In this document: in pieces, positions 3,287 to 64,000 of the stretch
Position numbering within the stretch: the stretch's first letter is position 1
How the letters are laid out: every line of letters begins with the position of its first letter
Assembly: GCA_963804955.1 (NCBI GenBank)
Contig: CAWDSQ010000007.1
Location: forward strand, 496,183 to 560,182
Length of the DNA stretch: 64,000 nt
Reading direction: 5' to 3'
DNA from: an uncultured delta proteobacterium
GTDB taxonomy: Bacteria > Desulfobacterota > WTBG01 > CAIYCZ01 > CAIRTM01
Notes under the pieces: model-generated
Database searches by the model: none
Told to the model about the DNA's origin: nothing
The model's input: the letters and a program-made list of their open reading frames with translations, nothing else
Position numbers and translations under genes: made by a program

Positions 3287-3834
3287 TTTTTCTGCTCCTT
3301 TTTCACAAAATCATAGCCCGCCTGAAACGCATCCCTGTTGGCTTTGAGCAGATGTGCCTTGCCCCCGCCCAGAATGTCGGGCAGGTTCTTCATCATGCGG
3401 TCAAACGAAAGCAAATTGCTTACGCCGACGAATGCGCCCATCATAACCATATTGGTGACCTTCACGTTACCGAGCTTCGTGGCGATGTCGGTTGTCGGCA
3501 CGCCCAGAACCTCGATGTCGCCGCGGGCATCGGCAGCAGTCACCAGCGTTGTATTGTACAGCATGAAGCCGCCCGAGGGCAACAGGTTCTGGAACCGGAA
3601 AAACGAGGGCTGATTGAGCGCCACCACGAACTCGGGCTCCGAAGCGATGGGGGAGGCAATTTCTTCGTCGGAGATGGTCACGGTGCAGTTTGCCGTACCG
3701 CCGCGCACCTCTGCGCCGTATGACGGCAGAAAGGTCACGAAACGGTCCTCAAGCATGGCGGCCTTTGCCAGCATCTGGCCCATGGAGATCACGCCCTGGC
3801 CGCCGAATCCTGAAAAAATTGTCTTGATCAGCAT
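3280..3834 (-). CDS. 2-oxoacid:ferredoxin oxidoreductase gamma subunit
   Basis: MLIKTIFSGFGGQG and PSYGAEVRGGTANC motifs. It is artificially fused into ORF 3280-5094 by frameshifts. Confidence 0.9.
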   Translation of the reverse strand: MLIKTIFSGFGGQGVISMGQMLAKAAMLEDRFVTFLPSYGAEVRGGTANCTVTISDEEIASPIASEPEFVVALNQPSFFRFQNLLPSGGFMLYNTTLVTAADARGDIEVLGVPTTDIATKLGNVKVTNMVMMGAFVGVSNLLSFDRMMKNLPDILGGGKAHLLKANRDAFQAGYDFVKKEQKKC

Positions 3835-4572
3835 TGCACCTCTTTTATTACCCCCAGCGGAAATTCCTTTGCCATAACCTCGTCGATCCATGCGCAGGAC
3901 GCCATGGCATCCATTTTCCAGTTGGTCGGGCAGGGCGACAGAATTTCGACAAGTGAGAATCCGCATCTTCTTTATCTGGTATTCAAAAGCCTTTTTAATG
4001 GCAGCTTTGGTCTTGCGGACTCCCGCAGGGGAGCTTACCGACACGCGCTCAAGGTAGCTCGGGCCGCCAAGCTGCGCCATGAGCTCGCAGACCCTGATGG
4101 GCTGGCCCTTCGGTTTTGCCATCGTGCGGCCAAGGGGCGAGGTGGTTGTTTTCTGGCCGATAAGAGAGGTCGGGGCCATCTGACCGCCGGTCATGCCGTA
4201 GACGGCATTATTGACAAAAATGACGGTAATATTTTCCCCGCGGTTTGCCGTATGCAGGGCCTCGGCAGTGCCGATGGCCGCCAGATCGCCGTCGCCCTGA
4301 TAGGAGAACACGAGATTATCGGGCCGCACGCGCTTAACGCCGGTTGCCACGGCCGTAGCCCTGCCATGGGGCGCCTCGACCATATCGATATCTAGATAAT
4401 TATAGGCAAGCACGGCGCATCCTGCGGGAGGCACGCATATGGCCTTGTCCTGCAGGTTCATTTCATCAAGCAGCTCGGCTATAAGCCGGTGAATAATGCT
4501 GTGGCCGCAGCCCGGGCAATAGTGCATGGACACTTTACGCAGAGATTTTGGCCGTGTGTATACTTTTTTCAT
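3828..4572 (-). CDS. 2-oxoacid:ferredoxin oxidoreductase beta (TPP-binding) subunit, frameshift near 3960
   Basis: HYCPGCGH, GDGDLAAIG and NNAVYGMTGGQ motifs; the C-terminus LSPCPTNW is in the alternate frame. Confidence 0.9.
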
Positions 4573-11117: not shown

Positions 11118-11166
11118 GTTGGGTTGAGGTACGAAATCCAACATTCTTTTCCGGGCTTAACCCAAC
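11118..11166 (+). repeat. REP-like repeat, copy 1 (GGGTTGAGGTACGAAA family)
   Basis: Near-identical to 32881-32929; a partial inverted copy lies at 63906-63931. Confidence 0.8.
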
Positions 11167-32880: not shown

Positions 32881-32929
32881 GTCGGGTTGAGGTACGAAAC
32901 CCAGCGGTCTCTTCCGGGCTTAACCCAGC
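32881..32929 (+). repeat. REP-like repeat, copy 2 (GGGTTGAGGTACGAAA family)
   Basis: Matches 11118-11166. Confidence 0.8.
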
Positions 32930-38314: not shown

Positions 38315-38495
38315 GCTGTTGGATTGGTTACATTGGTTGAAAAAAGGTTGTATTAGTTAGATTAATTAGATTGGTTTTATTGGCTGCTTTTTTAACGAAT
38401 CAAACTAACTGAACCAACTGAACCAATTGAACCAATTGAACCAATTGAACCAACTGAACTAATTGAACCAACTGAACTAATTTAACCAATTAAAC
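38315..38495 (+). repeat. AT-rich element with inverted 9-bp tandem arrays (AACCAAYTG), copy 1
   Basis: About 10 nonamer units at 38403-38495. The roughly 70-bp core is nearly identical to the reverse complement of 42415-42488. Confidence 0.85.
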
Positions 38496-38505
38496 ATTTT
38501 TTTAC

Positions 38506-42384: not shown

Positions 42385-42520
42385 ATTAGTTAAATTAGTT
42401 TCATTGGTTTCATTGGTTTGATTCATTAAAAAAGCAGCCAATAAAACAAACTAATTAATCTAACTAATACAACCTTTTTTCAACCAATCCAACCAATTGA
42501 ACCAACCGAACCAATCAACC
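42385..42520 (-). repeat. AT-rich nonamer-array element, copy 2 (inverted)
   Basis: Contains AAAAAAGCAGCCAATAAAAC..CTAATTAATCTAACTAATACAACCTTTTTTCAACCAAT, the reverse complement of the copy 1 core. Confidence 0.85.
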
Positions 42521-42526
42521 CGCCTC

Positions 42527-43837
42527 TCACCCCCACTGCTTCCGGTTATCAACCACCCGCACAGCCTTGCCTTCGCTCTGGGGCAGCGTGCCTGGCTCCA
42601 CGAGCTCGACCTCGGGCGTTACCAGAAGCTCGGAGCGCAGATTTTCAGTAATGGTCTTGCGCAGCACCTGCAGCTCCTTCAGATCGCCGTGAAACATCTC
42701 GGCCTGCACCTCAACCTTGACGATCATATGGTCGTTAAAATCCTTGTGGTCCAGCTGAATCAGGTAATTGGAGCCCACCTGGGGTAGGGCCATAAGCGTT
42801 TTCTCGATCTGCACCGGATACATGTTGACGCCCTTGACGATCAGCATATCATCCGTGCGGCCCTTGATGCGCGTCAGCCTGCGGTGCGTGCGGCCGCAGG
42901 GGCATGGTTCGGTTATAACGGCGGCAATGTCCTTTGAGCGGTAGCGCAGCAGGGGCATGCCCTCGCGCTTGAGCGTTGTGAAAACAATTTCGCCATCCTC
43001 GCCCTCTTCCACCGGCTCGAGAGTTACGGGGTTTATAATCTCGATCAGGAAGTTATCTTCCCAGACATGCATGCCGTGCTTGTGCGTGCACTCGAAGGCC
43101 ACGCCTGGCCCGTTCATCTCCGAAAGCCCGTAGGAGTTGAAGGCCTGCACGCCAAGGGCCGCCTCAACCCGCAGCCGCGTTTCATCGGAGTGCGGCTCTG
43201 CGCCCAGATAGGCTATGCGCAGCTTGAATTCGCGCTTCGGGTCGATGCCTGCCTCCTGCAGCGATTTGATGAAATGCAGCGCATAGCTCGGGATTATATG
43301 AATGACGCTGGTCTCGAATTCGCGCATGAGCATGATCTGCCGCTTGGTATTGCCGGCTCCCACGGGAATGACCATGGCCCCGAGCTGCTCGGCGCCGTAG
43401 TGAAACCCGAGGCCGCCGGTGAACAGGCCGTAGCCGGTCATGTTCTGGAACACGTCGCTTTCCCGCACGCCGGTCATGTACATGCAGCGGGCGATGAGGC
43501 CCGACCATTCGCGGATGTCCTGCATGGTGTGAAAAATGACGGTCGGCTTGCCCGTGCTGCCGGAGGAGGAATGCATGCGCACGATTTTATCGCGCGGCAC
43601 GGCCAGGAAGCCGTAGGGGTACTGGTCGCGCAGGTCATCTTTGGTGATAAAAGGAATGCGCCGAAGATCGTCGAGGCTTTTGATGCTAGCCGGCGCGATG
43701 CGCTCTTTTTTGAAAAGCTCCGCATAATAGGGCGCCTGCTGCGCCCGTTGGACCGTTGCCTGCAGCAGGCTCAGCTGCAGCTTTTCAAGAGAGCTCCTGT
43801 CCATAGTCTCGGTATGGGTGTCCCAGCACATGCTCAT
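42527..43837 (-). CDS. paaK: Phenylacetate-CoA ligase
   Basis: HSSSGSTGKP, YGLFTGGLGFHYGAE, YGLSEMNGPGV, GRTDDMLIVKGVN and EGKAVRV motifs. Confidence 0.93.
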   Translation of the reverse strand: MSMCWDTHTETMDRSSLEKLQLSLLQATVQRAQQAPYYAELFKKERIAPASIKSLDDLRRIPFITKDDLRDQYPYGFLAVPRDKIVRMHSSSGSTGKPTVIFHTMQDIREWSGLIARCMYMTGVRESDVFQNMTGYGLFTGGLGFHYGAEQLGAMVIPVGAGNTKRQIMLMREFETSVIHIIPSYALHFIKSLQEAGIDPKREFKLRIAYLGAEPHSDETRLRVEAALGVQAFNSYGLSEMNGPGVAFECTHKHGMHVWEDNFLIEIINPVTLEPVEEGEDGEIVFTTLKREGMPLLRYRSKDIAAVITEPCPCGRTHRRLTRIKGRTDDMLIVKGVNMYPVQIEKTLMALPQVGSNYLIQLDHKDFNDHMIVKVEVQAEMFHGDLKELQVLRKTITENLRSELLVTPEVELVEPGTLPQSEGKAVRVVDNRKQWG

Positions 43838-60620: not shown

Positions 60621-63580
60621 CTATTCTTTCCTTCCCACCATTGGCGCAATCACTTCGAGAACCCTTCGGGTTACGGATCGCAACGCCGGGCTGCGCTCCA
60701 GAGCGGCATTGATGCTGCCGGCATTATTATAATAGATTGCAATGATCTTCCGGCCAATGGCGTTCTTAGCAACGGTTTTATCACGGAAAGACCTGAGCTG
60801 TGAAAGATTCGGGTTGCCATCGCCCAGCAGATTCACAAATGGGCATTTCTTACCGTCGCAATCCTCCTCAATAAGCCCGTTGCAGTTGTTGTCGATACCA
60901 TCGCCACATATCTCCTCAGCCTCTGGCTTCACATACTTGTCTGCATCGTTGCAATCCTGCGCTTTAGCGCACTTCGGGCCTATACCGTACCCGTCACCAT
61001 CATTATCAATACAGCCGGTCGATATGGTTGTCGTAGTTGTGGTTGTGACAACGGTTGTAGTGGTAGATGAACTCGTGCTTGGAGCCGTTGTGGTTGTTGT
61101 CGGTGCTGTTGTCGTACTGGTTGGTTGAGTAGTGGTCGTTGTCGGCTGCGTAGTTGTGGTCGTGACAACGGTTGTAGTGGTAGATGAACTCGTACTTGGA
61201 GCCGTTGTGGTTGTTGTCGGAACAATAGTGGTTGTAGTTGTTATCGGCTCAGCAGTCGTGGTCGTACTGCTGACATAGTAATGTAATATTGTTCCGTTAT
61301 CTCCGACAGCAAAAACATCACCGCTCGAACTGACCCATACGCTGCGCATATGATTGATCGTGCTGCTTGTCATTGCTGACCATGCAGAGCCATCATAATG
61401 GAGTATGCTGCCGCCATCACCAACAGCAAAAACATCGCTGCCTGAAGTGCCCCAGACCCCCCTTAGGTCCACTGTTGTACCGCTGGTCATATTGTCCCAT
61501 GATATGCCGTCATAATAAACTATTGCCCCATTGGTCCCGACAGCAAAAACAGCACTGTCCGAATCACCCCAGACGCCAAACAGTAGATTCGGCGTCTGGT
61601 CAGATGTAACAGTCCATGATGCGCCATTATAATAGGTTATTCGACTTTTATAATACGCAAAACAATTCTCAGGATCAGGCGGGAAAGATCCACAACCACC
61701 TCCGCTAAACCCAGTACTACCGCCCACGCTAAAAATATCACTATCTGAAGCCCCCCATAGGTCATAGCCAGAGCAGTCGGTTGAAACACTATCCCATGAA
61801 GCGCCGTTATAATTAAATAGGGATGTACCTCCAGCAAAGGTGTTAATGTTTGAACTCCCCCAAATGCAGTTAAAATCCATCGTCGTGCCACTGGTCATAT
61901 TATCCCAAGCTATACCGTCATAATGCAGTATCACGCCGTCATACCCAACAACAAAGACATCATTGCCGCCAGAGCCCCAAATTCCCCGAAGCGTAGTGGT
62001 TATGCCGCTGGTTATATTACCCCAGGCTGTTCCATCATAATGCAGTATTGCGCCTCCAGCCCCAACAGCAAAAACATCTGTGCTGGAATTTCCCCAGACG
62101 CGATAAAGAGATTTGGTTGTTCCGCTGGTCATTGAGGTCCAGCCGCACACAGACGTTGTGGTAGTGCTTGGTGCTGTAGTCGTGGTTGTTGGAACTAAAT
62201 CGAAGGTTGCCGATACCGTCAGATTTGTATTCATGATAACTGTGCAGGAACCAGTGCCCGAGCACCCGCCGCCGCTCCAACCGACAAAAGTTGAGACTCC
62301 ATCAGCCGTCGCGGCAAGAGCCACCTCCGTGCAGCTTGTATATGTTTCACTGCAGTGACTGCCGCAGTCTATCTTCCCGTCGTTGCTTCCGACTGTGCCC
62401 CCACCGGTGCCTGATTTTGAAATGATTAAATCACCTAATCCGCCACGCACCGCACGGGCCCAACCGCTGAATGTCTTATAGGCGTTAGACACACTGCCGT
62501 GGTTGAAGCCCACGAGCCACGCGTAGGTTGTACTGCTTGCGTAAGTAGTAGACGACCAGTAACCGGACGGCTCCTCATTGGGGAAATAGTCGGTATTTAT
62601 GGCCGGAACATACCGACTATAATCAACAATTGATCCCAGTTCTTCACAAATTGGCATGCGCCAGTCTGAGAACCCCCCATAGTTAGAGGTATTCAGGGCT
62701 CGGATAAAATCCATAGTGTCGGTACCGTCGCCCGGCTTGCCTGGATTGCCGCCATTTGTGGCGGAATTGTTATCATACCAGGTGTACATATTGTCAGCAT
62801 CATTGGGGTCTGCATAATTTGTTGCATTGTTCCAGGCATGCTTTTCTTCCCAGACAAGGCCGGTCACATCGTCACGAACCATGGCCCAGGTGGTGGCATT
62901 GTCAGGAAGTAGTGTGCAGCCTGCCGCAAGCTTGGTATATCCCGGGGTATTGATACTGTAGCTTGCATCCTGCCCATAGAAGGCCTGTCCCGGCTGAGGG
63001 CAGGGGATTTCCGTCGTACTATTATAACATTTTGTCTGCCCGGTATCAGGCACAGGCCAAAGGGCCACATTATCAAATGCCCCAGACTGTCCCGAACGCA
63101 CCGCGCGAACGTAATTGTAGCCCGTCTTATTGTAGATGTAGACGTAGCCGTAGCCGAAGCACACGTACCACGCGCCGTAAGTATCGTAGGCGTCCGTAGT
63201 AGACGACCAGTAATAGGACGCCACCGTGTCGGAGAAAAACACGGTATTTATTGCTGGATTGTACCGGCTTTTGTCGGTAAGAGACTCAAGCTCTTTAGCC
63301 GTAGGCAGGCGCCAGTCGCTATATTTAGCTCCGGAGGCATTGGCGTACCACTTGTCCACTCCCCGTCATTGTTGAGCATCAAATTCCCACAGTAGGCAAG
63401 GGCTTGCTCCCAGGTATAGGTACCCGGTGCCGTTGTCTGCTGCCACATGAGACCCGTACCATTATCGGTGACCGTGCCGTCGCCATTGTCTATAAAGCCC
63501 GCTTGCGCGCCGGAGCACTGCAGCAGCAAGGCGATTGCAGCGGCAAGAACAAGAAGGTCGCATGATTTGCTTATGTTCAT
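60621..63580 (-). CDS. Secreted modular surface protein: 2x DUF1566 (C-type-lectin fold), InlB-B-like repeat, beta-propeller repeats, Thr-rich linkers, MopE-like metal motif, CFI-box-CTERM-like tail; frameshift near 63360
   Basis: Signal peptide; FIDNGDGTVTDNGTGLMWQ, DWRLPT..EL, two YWSST..AW.V.F..G..RAVR motifs, repeated L.GVWG.S..DVFAVG..G.ILHYDG..W, DNDGDGYG..DCND..EICGDGIDNNCNG and LRSFRD...GRKII.IYY. Confidence 0.88.
61033..61220. repeat. About 70-bp direct duplication in the Thr-rich linker
   Basis: 61033-61102 and 61150-61220 are nearly identical and encode PTTTTTAPSTSSSTTTTVVTTTT twice. Confidence 0.85.
62439..62570 (-). other. Putative DGR variable region 2
   Basis: 132 nt, colinear with 63090-63221. 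Differences concentrate in codon positions 1-2 of NNC/NNT codons. Confidence 0.6.
63090..63221 (-). other. Putative DGR variable region 1
   Basis: TCC TAT TAC TGG TCG TCT ACT ACG GAC GCC TAC GAT...GCG TGG TAC GTG TGC TTC GGC TAC GGC TAC GTC TAC ATC TAC AAT AAG; almost every variable codon ends in C or T. Confidence 0.7.
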
Positions 63581-63830: not shown

Positions 63831-64000
63831 ACCTGCAAAAGCCTCATACAGTCCGCCCGCAAAATACAAACACCCTTAATAGCGCCTAAACGAAAAGAAA
63901 AAACCGTTAGGTTTCGTGCCTCAAACCCAACCAAAAATAGCTGCTTGCGCAAAAAACATATAAATAAGGGCAAACTAAACAAATCCATGTTGCCCCCGCA

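What the first reader, a model, noticed from the sequence alone, without database searches (positions are those of the whole stretch)
62439..63221. Two DGR-type variable regions inside one secreted surface protein (remote target, no RT in window)
Seen in the sequence: the 3' ends of both DUF1566 domains (63221-63090 and 62570-62439) are gap-free 132-nt paralogues. Scaffold codons are identical, including the 18-mer TTACTGGTCGTCTACTAC, GCGTGG, TTC, GGC, AAG and GCGGTGCGT. Variable codons differ at positions 1-2 but mostly keep the same third C or T (TAT/GGT, GAC/TAC, TAC/AGC, GAT/AGT, TAC/ACC, GGC/TAC, TAC/CTC, TGC/GGC, GGC/AAC, GGC/TTC, AAT/GGT); about 5 codons break the rule. This is the reverse of ordinary drift, where third positions change first. 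Established: DGRs mutate only template adenines, so AAC/AAT codons give NNC/NNT, and C-type-lectin folds including DUF1566 are common targets. Inference: both regions derive from a template like TCC AAT TAC TGG TCG TCT ACT ACA AAC GCA AAC AAT ACA AAC AAC GCG TGG AAC GTG AAC TTC AAC AAC GGC. That would make a cellular, trans-acting DGR diversifying two internal (not C-terminal) binding sites of a bivalent adhesin.
Basis: partly seen in the sequence, partly recalled or inferred. Interest (0 to 1): 0.85.

Follow-up and report, generated by a model that had tools for sequence, protein, structure and literature searches.

The report
Orphan DGR-written tips in surface lectin
Two binding-site segments of one secreted surface protein were written by a mutagenic reverse-transcriptase system (DGR), but that system is missing from this genome, so they are most likely frozen relics of a well-known mechanism.

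Summary
The two gap-free 132-nt segments differ at 46 positions: 18, 17 and 11 at codon positions 1, 2 and 3. They end the two Lcl_C/DUF1566 domains of one gene.

They are DGR variable regions. A same-genus genome (G004) carries a complete cassette: target, bAvd, template repeat (TR), RT, second target. Its own VR differs from its TR at 23 adenine sites and 0 other sites. A metagenome contig (L071) holds a TR that differs from vrA at 21 of 46 A sites but only 3 of 86 non-A sites. vrB differs at 24 and 12. vrA keeps the TR's exact third base in 18 of 18 AAY codons and vrB in 16 of 18. Nine other paralogues score 6-16.

An active trans-acting DGR here is not supported. The 87%-complete assembly has no RVT_1, no bAvd above cut-off and no TR. 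The site that holds the cassette in G004 is empty. vrB has diverged ends. Contigs from three studies show near-identical VRs.

The scan has reported orphan DUF1566 VRs in other genomes before. This is a new member of a known kind.

The parts
60621..63580 (-). Whole gene for a secreted multidomain surface protein. As assembled it is split into ORFs 63580..63248 (110 aa) and 63359..60621 (912 aa). Read as one frame it would be about 986 aa.
   Evidence: frame arithmetic
63500..63580 (-). N-terminal signal-peptide-like segment (MNISKSCDLLVLAAAIALLLQCSGAQA...). Judged by eye; no predictor was run.
   Evidence: translation; inference
63096..63478 (-). First Lcl_C/DUF1566 domain, matched in two pieces either side of the frameshift.
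   Evidence: C7:559278-559520 and C7:559538-559660, converted to window coordinates
63344..63345 (-). Site of the 1-nt frameshift. One contig of run X3 has one extra base between these two positions, which joins the two ORFs into a single frame.
   Evidence: table 4; (frame check)
63090..63226 (-). vrA, a DGR variable region. It keeps the 5' 'cggtg' and 3' 'GGAcagt.tggg' flanks seen at VRs of intact cassettes.
62445..62882 (-). Second Lcl_C/DUF1566 domain.
   Evidence: C7:558627-559064
62439..62570 (-). vrB, an older or decayed DGR variable region. Both ends have diverged: Y to W and V to A in the YVRAVR scaffold, and different flanks.
61274..62119 (-). Diverged 117-nt (39-aa) repeats, which look like propeller blades (my reading). 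They are flanked by Thr-rich linkers.
   Evidence: families D2, D3; translation
60867..60956 (-). MopE-type putative metal-binding motif (PF11617).
   Evidence: residues 802-831 of the 912-aa ORF
60654..60818 (-). CFI-box-CTERM domain (NF041770; 41.2 bits, cut-off 40). The second target of the G004 cassette ends in the same kind of tail.
   Evidence: (translation of L025 3367..4149)

Best explanation
The gene encodes a secreted surface protein. It has a signal peptide, two Lcl_C/DUF1566 lectin-like heads, repeat blades, Thr-rich linkers, a MopE motif and a CFI-box C-terminal tail. The ligand-facing end of each head was written by a diversity-generating retroelement (DGR). In that mechanism, recalled from the DGR literature, an RT with Avd copies a template repeat (TR) into cDNA, misreads template adenines, and the cDNA replaces the variable region. 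AAC/AAT template codons therefore become NNC/NNT codons. The template was of the type ASNYWSSTTNANNTNNAWNVNFNNGNVNNNNKTNNNYVRAVRSG, found intact in a same-genus genome and on a metagenome contig. In this genome the avd-TR-RT cassette is most likely gone, so both regions are now frozen. vrA is nearly pristine and still has target-like flanks. vrB is older and drifting. Shown: the DGR origin of the two regions, and the absence of the cassette from the assembly and from its syntenic site. Inferred: that the cassette is truly absent from the organism, and that the regions no longer vary. The confidence of 0.6 is for the whole statement; the DGR origin alone I put at about 0.93.
For: 1. G004 contig C55 (L025) carries a canonical cassette: target 318-833, bAvd 951-1331 (PF22296, 50.3 bits), TR about 1455-1586, RT (RVT_1, 42.7 bits, with an IGNLTSQ motif in the translation), and a second target 3367-4149. 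The second target's VR differs from the TR at 23 A sites and 0 non-A sites.
2. Against that TR (46 A, 86 non-A), vrA has 21 A-site and 6 non-A mismatches, and vrB has 24 and 13.
3. Against the TR of L071, vrA has 21 and 3, and vrB has 24 and 12. In the interior (positions 4-110) vrA has 1 non-A mismatch of 62. vrB has 6 of 62, all at third codon positions.
4. The third bases at the 18 AAY codons read TCCTCCCCCCCCCCTCCT in the TR and identically in vrA. vrB differs at 2 of them. Neither has K/E/Q/M/W or stop at these codons.
5. Absence in G000: RVT_1 gives 0 matches at E<=0.01 and at E<=10. The best bAvd match is 18.7 bits against a cut-off of 40. tblastn with the G004 RT and Avd finds only the TR-encoded stretch. 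The A-tolerant scan finds no TR. The four PF05635 genes have no RT beside them.
6. Empty site: in G004 and L070 the block PIN-target2-RT-TR-avd-target1 lies between LemA and an M16 peptidase. In G000:C32 these two genes are about 210 nt apart (147922 to 148132) inside a 162,899-nt contig.
7. Contigs of runs from three studies match the window's VRs. X1 covers 62881-63218 with 2 differences and 62457-62907 with 5. X2 covers 62457-62607 with 0. X3 covers 63152-63405 with 1 difference plus the extra base.
8. In G004 itself, a second pair of target-like genes (L026) lacks a cassette and has 9-10 non-A mismatches to G004's own TR. Stranded copies therefore occur in this lineage.
Against: The assembly is only 87.41% complete. 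The window ends at a contig end 420 nt upstream of this gene, so a cassette could lie in unassembled DNA. Each of vrA's 3 non-A mismatches to the L071 TR is a state seen in another TR or VR of the clade: T42 in the G004 TR, G129 in the L053 TR, T114 in the G004 C300 and G003 VRs. A TR matching vrA perfectly is therefore plausible. vrA keeps flanks like those of live VRs. The read evidence is weak. All four runs are low-depth contigs (depth about 2-4) that drop rare variants. They were found through shared 31-mers, which favours identical sequence, and X1 may be the source sample. Collection scans may omit records very near this genome (notes). Related cassettes sit on short contigs (7,967, 3,159 and 2,413 nt), which suggests they assemble or bin poorly.
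Confidence: 0.6

Rival explanations
1. A live, trans-acting DGR exists in this organism but is not assembled or binned (in the missing ~13%, beyond the contig end, or on a mobile element). It still rewrites vrA as a remote target. vrB is either retired or served by a second TR.
For: vrA has only 3 of 86 non-A mismatches to a TR from another organism, and 1 of 62 in the interior. Its flanks match those of live VRs. The assembly is 87.41% complete and the contig ends 420 nt upstream of the gene. Related cassettes lie on short contigs. Remote targets more than 100 kb from the RT are documented for chromosomal DGRs (PMC5758913, passages read).
Against: No RT, bAvd or TR was found by four kinds of search. 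The syntenic site is empty and contiguous. VRs are near-identical in contigs from three studies. Only 1 of the 4 other same-genus genomes holds this RT, yet all 4 hold vrA-like segments. The gene is frameshifted in this assembly.
Confidence: 0.3
2. The two segments are ordinary paralogous domain ends. Their NNY codons reflect only the Tyr/Asn/Asp/Gly/Ser-rich make-up of lectin binding sites, and no retroelement was ever involved.
For: The genome holds 35 Lcl_C matches that share the YWSSTT...AW.V.F..G....K....VRAVR scaffold. Other paralogues also differ more at template A sites than elsewhere, for example C26:65445 with 28 A and 19 non-A mismatches, Fisher p = 1.2e-5. Variable residues coincide with A sites in any family member.
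Against: vrA reproduces the template's exact C/T choice at 18 of 18 AAY codons, including T at just the four AAT codons. Other paralogues keep 6-13 of 18, except one at 16. vrA has 1 non-A mismatch in 62 interior sites against a TR found independently in a metagenome. That is far less than the 14-21% divergence of ordinary orthologous genes between G000 and G004 (79-86% identity). The 5' and 3' TR-VR homology boundaries are shared with an intact cassette.
Confidence: 0.04
3. The heads were written in another genome that carries the DGR. They arrived here by horizontal transfer or recombination of the gene or domain, so this lineage never had its own cassette.
For: DGR presence is patchy: 4 of 17 genomes of the family have a match to the G004 RT. 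The region upstream of the gene is 76% identical to the region upstream of target1 in L070 (L070 4814-4913 against C7 559834-559933). Synteny with the G003 counterpart is not conserved.
Against: Nothing distinguishes this from local loss of the cassette. G003 holds a counterpart gene with two VR-like segments. No mobile-element genes were seen next to the gene within the 420 nt available.
Confidence: 0.06

Closest known systems
DGRs with DUF1566/DUF823/Fib_succ_major targets ('category d', CLec2 VRs; example: Legionella pneumophila DGR and LdtA), Wu et al. 2018, PMC5758913 (passages read)
   Same: The variable region overlaps a DUF1566/Lcl_C domain. It shows the A-to-N pattern against a TR with AAY codons. 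The constant residues are at both VR ends. The target is a surface-exposed protein with appended domains.
   Different: Here the VRs have no cassette in the genome. They lie inside a ~986-aa protein rather than at its C-terminus; the survey found only one CLec2 DGR with an internal VR. There are two of them in one protein.
Treponema denticola DGR with up to seven non-adjacent targets, and other remote targets of chromosomal (Lineage 4) DGRs, Wu et al. 2018 (passages)
   Same: The idea that one chromosomal TR/RT can serve target genes far away.
   Different: Those remote targets show only A-to-N differences to a TR in the same genome. Here no TR is present, and vrB has 12-13 non-A mismatches to the nearest TRs found.
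The CLec1 target gene with three VRs, two of them internal, Wu et al. 2018 (passage)
   Same: More than one VR in one target gene, with internal VRs whose 3' recognition sequence must also encode protein.
   Different: Different VR class (CLec1 versus CLec2). All three of those VRs appear to be under mutagenesis, whereas here at most one could be.
The intact cassettes of relatives found here: G004:C55 (L025), L070 and L071
   Same: Same TR family (3-6 non-A mismatches to vrA). Same Lcl_C heads. Same CFI-box-type tail on target2. Similar upstream region.
   Different: Their targets are single-head proteins of 171 and 260 aa next to avd-TR-RT, and their VRs have 0 non-A mismatches. The window's gene fuses two heads to a long stalk and stands alone.
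Orphan DGR variable regions in DUF1566 genes reported earlier by this scan in other genomes (unchecked AI notes)
   Same: A DGR-marked VR with no RT or TR in reach, judged frozen.
   Different: Other organisms and loci. Here there are two internal VRs at different stages of decay in one protein, and a matching TR was recovered from a congener and from a metagenome.

Membership tests
DGR target (variable region) | VR differs from a cognate TR almost only at template adenines | tested here: met
   No TR exists in the own genome, so the test used TRs of relatives. For vrA the counts are 21 A and 3 non-A mismatches against L071, and 21 and 6 against G004. For vrB they are 24 and 12, and 24 and 13. 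vrB meets the feature only loosely.
DGR target (variable region) | AAY template codons appear as NNY codons with the third base kept and no stop, K, E, Q, M or W | tested here: met
   vrA 18 of 18, vrB 16 of 18 (18 of 18 are Y), and 0 forbidden residues. Nine control paralogues score 6-16 of 18.
DGR target (variable region) | VR lies in a C-type-lectin-like or Ig-like ligand-binding fold | tested here: met
   Both VRs end Pfam Lcl_C (DUF1566) matches; the protein scores 173.4 bits. No fold was predicted. That DUF1566 VRs are treated as C-type-lectin type (CLec2) comes from PMC5758913.
Complete, functional DGR in this genome | DGR-type reverse transcriptase gene | tested here: not met
   RVT_1 gives 0 matches at E<=0.01 and at E<=10. 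tblastn with the G004 RT finds only the TR-encoded part. The assembly is 87.41% complete.
Complete, functional DGR in this genome | Template repeat in the same genome | tested here: not met
   An A-tolerant ungapped scan of all 36 contigs on both strands was run. The best non-self windows have 22 or more non-A mismatches, and those are A-rich low-complexity DNA. blastn with the L071 and L070 cassettes finds only VR-like copies.
Complete, functional DGR in this genome | Accessory protein Avd (bAvd) | tested here: not met
   The best PF22296 match is 18.7 bits against a cut-off of 40. Four PF05635 four-helix-bundle genes stand among housekeeping genes with no RT nearby.
Complete, functional DGR in this genome | Ongoing hypervariation of the VR in the population | tested here: inconclusive
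   Contigs of X1, X2 and X3 carry near-identical VRs (0-5 differences per piece). They are low-depth contigs chosen through shared words, and no raw reads were available.
Complete, functional DGR in this genome | VR 3' recognition sequence (IMH) and downstream structure able to accept cDNA | tested here: inconclusive
   vrA shares the 'GGAcagt.tggg.catt' 3' flank with VRs of intact cassettes; vrB does not. No hairpin was tested, and function cannot be judged from sequence.

The most novel reading that the evidence does not exclude
vrA is still a live remote target of a chromosomal DGR that the assembly missed, while vrB in the same protein has been retired. The protein would then be a two-headed adhesin with one evolvable head and one fixed head. 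The 35 Lcl_C domains of this genome, whose DGR mark fades stepwise (18, 16, 16, then 6-13 of 18 third bases kept), would be a record of heads that were written by a DGR, duplicated and then frozen as a standing library of binding specificities.
Probability: 0.22. Interest if true: 0.5.

Novelty: new member of a known kind. Interest (0 to 1): 0.3.

Why it matters
DGRs are the only known natural system that rewrites a protein's binding site on purpose. This case adds a clean example of what is left when the machine is lost: two internal, DGR-written lectin heads in one surface protein, one almost untouched and one drifting, with the matching template recoverable from a congener and from a metagenome. 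It also suggests that large DUF1566 families in sediment bacteria may be built partly from retired DGR products. Surveys that require a TR and RT nearby will miss such genes. None of this changes the known mechanism, and the scan has reported similar orphans in other genomes.

Tried and rejected
1. Repeats inside the window: there is no third, A-rich copy. Only the gene's own 117-nt repeats and unrelated repeats turned up.
2. The four PF05635 (Avd-like) genes of G000 as possible cassette cores: all stand among housekeeping genes with no RT nearby, and none reaches the bAvd cut-off.
3. The RT of G004:C392 (L020): by its YADDF motif and maturase-like tail I read it as a group II intron RT, not a DGR RT (my reading, no family scan).
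4. TRs of 36 species-representative genomes that carry the core motif: the best have 6-7 non-A mismatches to vrA, and none is perfect.
5. Viral contigs: 2 loci, each with 35 or more non-A mismatches, so no phage-borne template for these VRs was found in that collection.
6. Read laying: parts of the stretch have no cover in one or more runs, and the places of the 2 and 5 'other letters' in the X1 pieces were not listed. The data cannot show absence of variants.
7. Protein search: 1578 proteins at E<=1e-20, but the best is 70% identical. No near-identical alleles were available to compare VRs. 10 of the first 30 hits show two scaffold motifs by my regex.
8. Literature on orphan or decayed VRs: the four-term search found 0 papers. 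One search listed 12 of 24 papers, and I read none for this point. One search (PMC8144416, term search only) gave nothing relevant. I therefore make no claim about whether orphan VRs are in print.
Full report
**What is there.** The window is G000:C7:496183-560182, and its last base is the end of the contig. On the minus strand lies one long gene. As assembled it is split into ORF 63580..63248 (110 aa, a signal-peptide-like start plus the beginning of an Lcl_C domain) and ORF 63359..60621 (912 aa).

Pfam finds two Lcl_C/DUF1566 domains (173.4 bits) and a MopE-type motif. NCBIfam finds a CFI-box-CTERM domain at the C-terminus (41.2 bits, cut-off 40). Between them lie Thr-rich linkers and diverged 117-nt repeats.

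The split is a 1-nt frameshift. One contig of run X3 carries one extra base between 63344 and 63345, and frame arithmetic shows that this joins the two ORFs into one of about 986 aa. I cannot tell whether the break in G000 is real or an assembly error.

**The observation.** vrA (63221-63090) and vrB (62570-62439) align without gaps. 86 of 132 bases are identical. The 46 differences fall 18, 17 and 11 at codon positions 1, 2 and 3. The 11 third-position differences are 6 synonymous changes in scaffold codons and 5 in variable codons.

**No partner in the window or genome.**
- The window has no third copy.
- The genome (4.26 Mb, 36 contigs, 87.41% complete) has 35 Lcl_C matches, and many share the YWSSTT...VRAVR scaffold.
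- A scan that forgives mismatches wherever the genome has A finds no template. The best non-self windows have 22 or more non-A mismatches and are A-rich low-complexity DNA.
- RVT_1 gives no match at E<=0.01 or E<=10.
- bAvd gives nothing above cut-off.
- The four PF05635 genes have no RT beside them.

**The template exists in relatives.** Searching the four other same-genus genomes with vrA gave three hits on one small contig of G004 that also holds an RVT_1 match. That contig (L025, 7,967 nt) is a textbook cassette:
- an Lcl_C target at 318-833;
- bAvd at 951-1331 (PF22296, 50.3 bits);
- a TR at about 1455-1586, which translates to ASNYWSSTTNANNTNNAWNVNFNNGNVNNNNKTNNNYVRAVRAG;
- an RT (RVT_1, 42.7 bits) with an IGNLTSQ motif, which I recall as a DGR-RT hallmark;
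- a second Lcl_C target at 3367-4149 with the same kind of C-terminal tail as the window's protein.

The second target's VR differs from the TR at 23 A sites and 0 non-A sites, so the cassette is, or recently was, active.

Against this TR (46 A, 86 non-A), vrA has 21 and 6 mismatches and vrB 24 and 13. The TR core motif occurs in 36 species-representative genomes of many phyla; the best of these TRs have 6-7 non-A mismatches to vrA.

A longer pattern found 3 metagenome loci. One of them, L071 (3,159 nt), carries bAvd, TR+RT and a target. It is 84.5% identical to the G004 cassette over 2,142 nt, and its own VR has 15 A and 0 non-A mismatches. Its TR differs from vrA at 21 A sites and only 3 non-A sites. 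For vrB the figures are 24 and 12. In the interior (positions 4-110), vrA has 1 non-A mismatch of 62. vrB has 6 of 62, all at third codon positions.

**Control for ordinary paralogy.** Variable residues coincide with template A sites in any family member, so excess A-site differences alone prove little. Several ordinary paralogues also give small Fisher p values.

The sharper test is the third base of the 18 AAY codons of the TR. vrA reproduces the template's string TCCTCCCCCCCCCCTCCT exactly, 18 of 18, with T at just the four AAT codons. vrB keeps 16 of 18. Neither has K, E, Q, M, W or stop at these codons. Nine other in-register paralogues of G000 keep 6-13, except C5:241881 at 16.

The 5' ('cggtg') and 3' ('GGA' then 'cagt') limits of TR-VR homology in the intact cassettes are shared by vrA. 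I conclude with high confidence that both segments were written by a DGR.

**Is it active here?** Evidence against:
- No RT, Avd or TR was found (above).
- The cassette's site is empty. In G004 and L070 the block PIN-target2-RT-TR-avd-target1 lies between LemA and an M16 peptidase. In G000:C32 these genes are about 210 nt apart inside a 162,899-nt contig.
- vrA and vrB differ at 14 of 86 non-A sites, so one TR cannot serve both.
- vrB has lost the shared flanks and carries scaffold changes, with WARAVR in place of YVRAVR.
- Contigs from three studies carry near-identical VRs.
- Only 1 of the 4 other same-genus genomes holds this RT, yet all 4 hold vrA-like segments.
- G004 itself has a cassette-less pair of target-like genes with 9-10 non-A mismatches to its own TR.

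Evidence for activity:
- The assembly is incomplete, and the contig ends 420 nt upstream of the gene.
- Related cassettes sit on short contigs.
- vrA is almost pristine. Each of its 3 mismatches is a state seen in another TR or VR of the clade.
- The read data are low-depth contigs chosen through shared words.

I put the orphan, frozen reading at about 0.6 and a live but unassembled DGR acting on vrA at about 0.3.

**Comparison with what is known.** Wu et al. 2018 (PMC5758913; passages read) describe DUF1566/DUF823/Fib_succ_major targets as 'category d' with CLec2 VRs, 14% of the DGRs surveyed, exemplified by Legionella LdtA. They also report remote targets more than 100 kb away for non-phage DGRs, one CLec2 DGR with an internal VR, and one CLec1 gene with three VRs. 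Two internal CLec2 VRs in one protein is a rare arrangement.

The scan has already noted orphan DUF1566 VRs in other genomes (unchecked notes). My searches for papers on orphan VRs found nothing usable, so I make no claim about whether this is in print.

**Verdict.** This is a genuine but ordinary relic of a known system, and a new member of a known kind. Its modest interest lies in the two differently aged VRs in one protein and in the graded DGR mark across the genome's Lcl_C family.

Noticed in passing
L025 1620-3092 and L071 861-2330 (RT proteins of the relatives' cassettes): Both DGR RTs carry a C-terminal match to MutS domain I (PF01624; 27.5 and 36.4 bits, cut-off 20.6). This looks like an RT fused to a mismatch-recognition-like domain. 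I did not check whether it is described.
   Followed up: no
G000:C5:241083-242020 (outside the window): Two tandem Lcl_C heads, the first with stop codons. The second head's end keeps the template's third base at 16 of 18 AAY codons but has 25 non-A mismatches, so it is probably an older stranded DGR-written head.
   Followed up: partly
L027 2409-4208 (G003:C25): The counterpart gene in G003 is also broken into two ORFs (211 and 313 aa). Its first VR-like segment carries insertions and reads out of frame for a stretch.
   Followed up: partly
L026 2773-4145 (G004:C300): A pair of genes resembling target1 and target2 of the G004 cassette lie directly next to each other with no avd-TR-RT between them. 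Their VRs have 9-10 non-A mismatches to G004's TR.
   Followed up: partly
window 38318-38504 and 42385-42529: Runs of a 9-nt tandem repeat (CTGAACCAA-like, about 9 copies) and 60-66-nt inverted repeats (82-90% complementary) bracket about 4 kb. That stretch holds a 349-aa ORF with a Cys-rich motif suggestive of a radical-SAM enzyme (my reading, no family scan) and two small membrane-protein-like ORFs.
   Followed up: no
window 11118-11164, 32881-32927 and about 63900-63935: Copies of a short repeated element (GTTGGGTT.GAGG.ACGAAA...) lie in intergenic DNA, one of them close to the contig end. The third copy was spotted by eye. A different ~100-nt element next to the cassette in L070 (5169-5274) is repeated on C5, C12 and C13 of G000.
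   Followed up: no
G000 whole genome: Four stand-alone PF05635 (23S rRNA intervening-sequence / Avd-like four-helix-bundle) genes are scattered among housekeeping genes. One of them has two in-frame TGA codons and lies near a contig end.
   Followed up: partly
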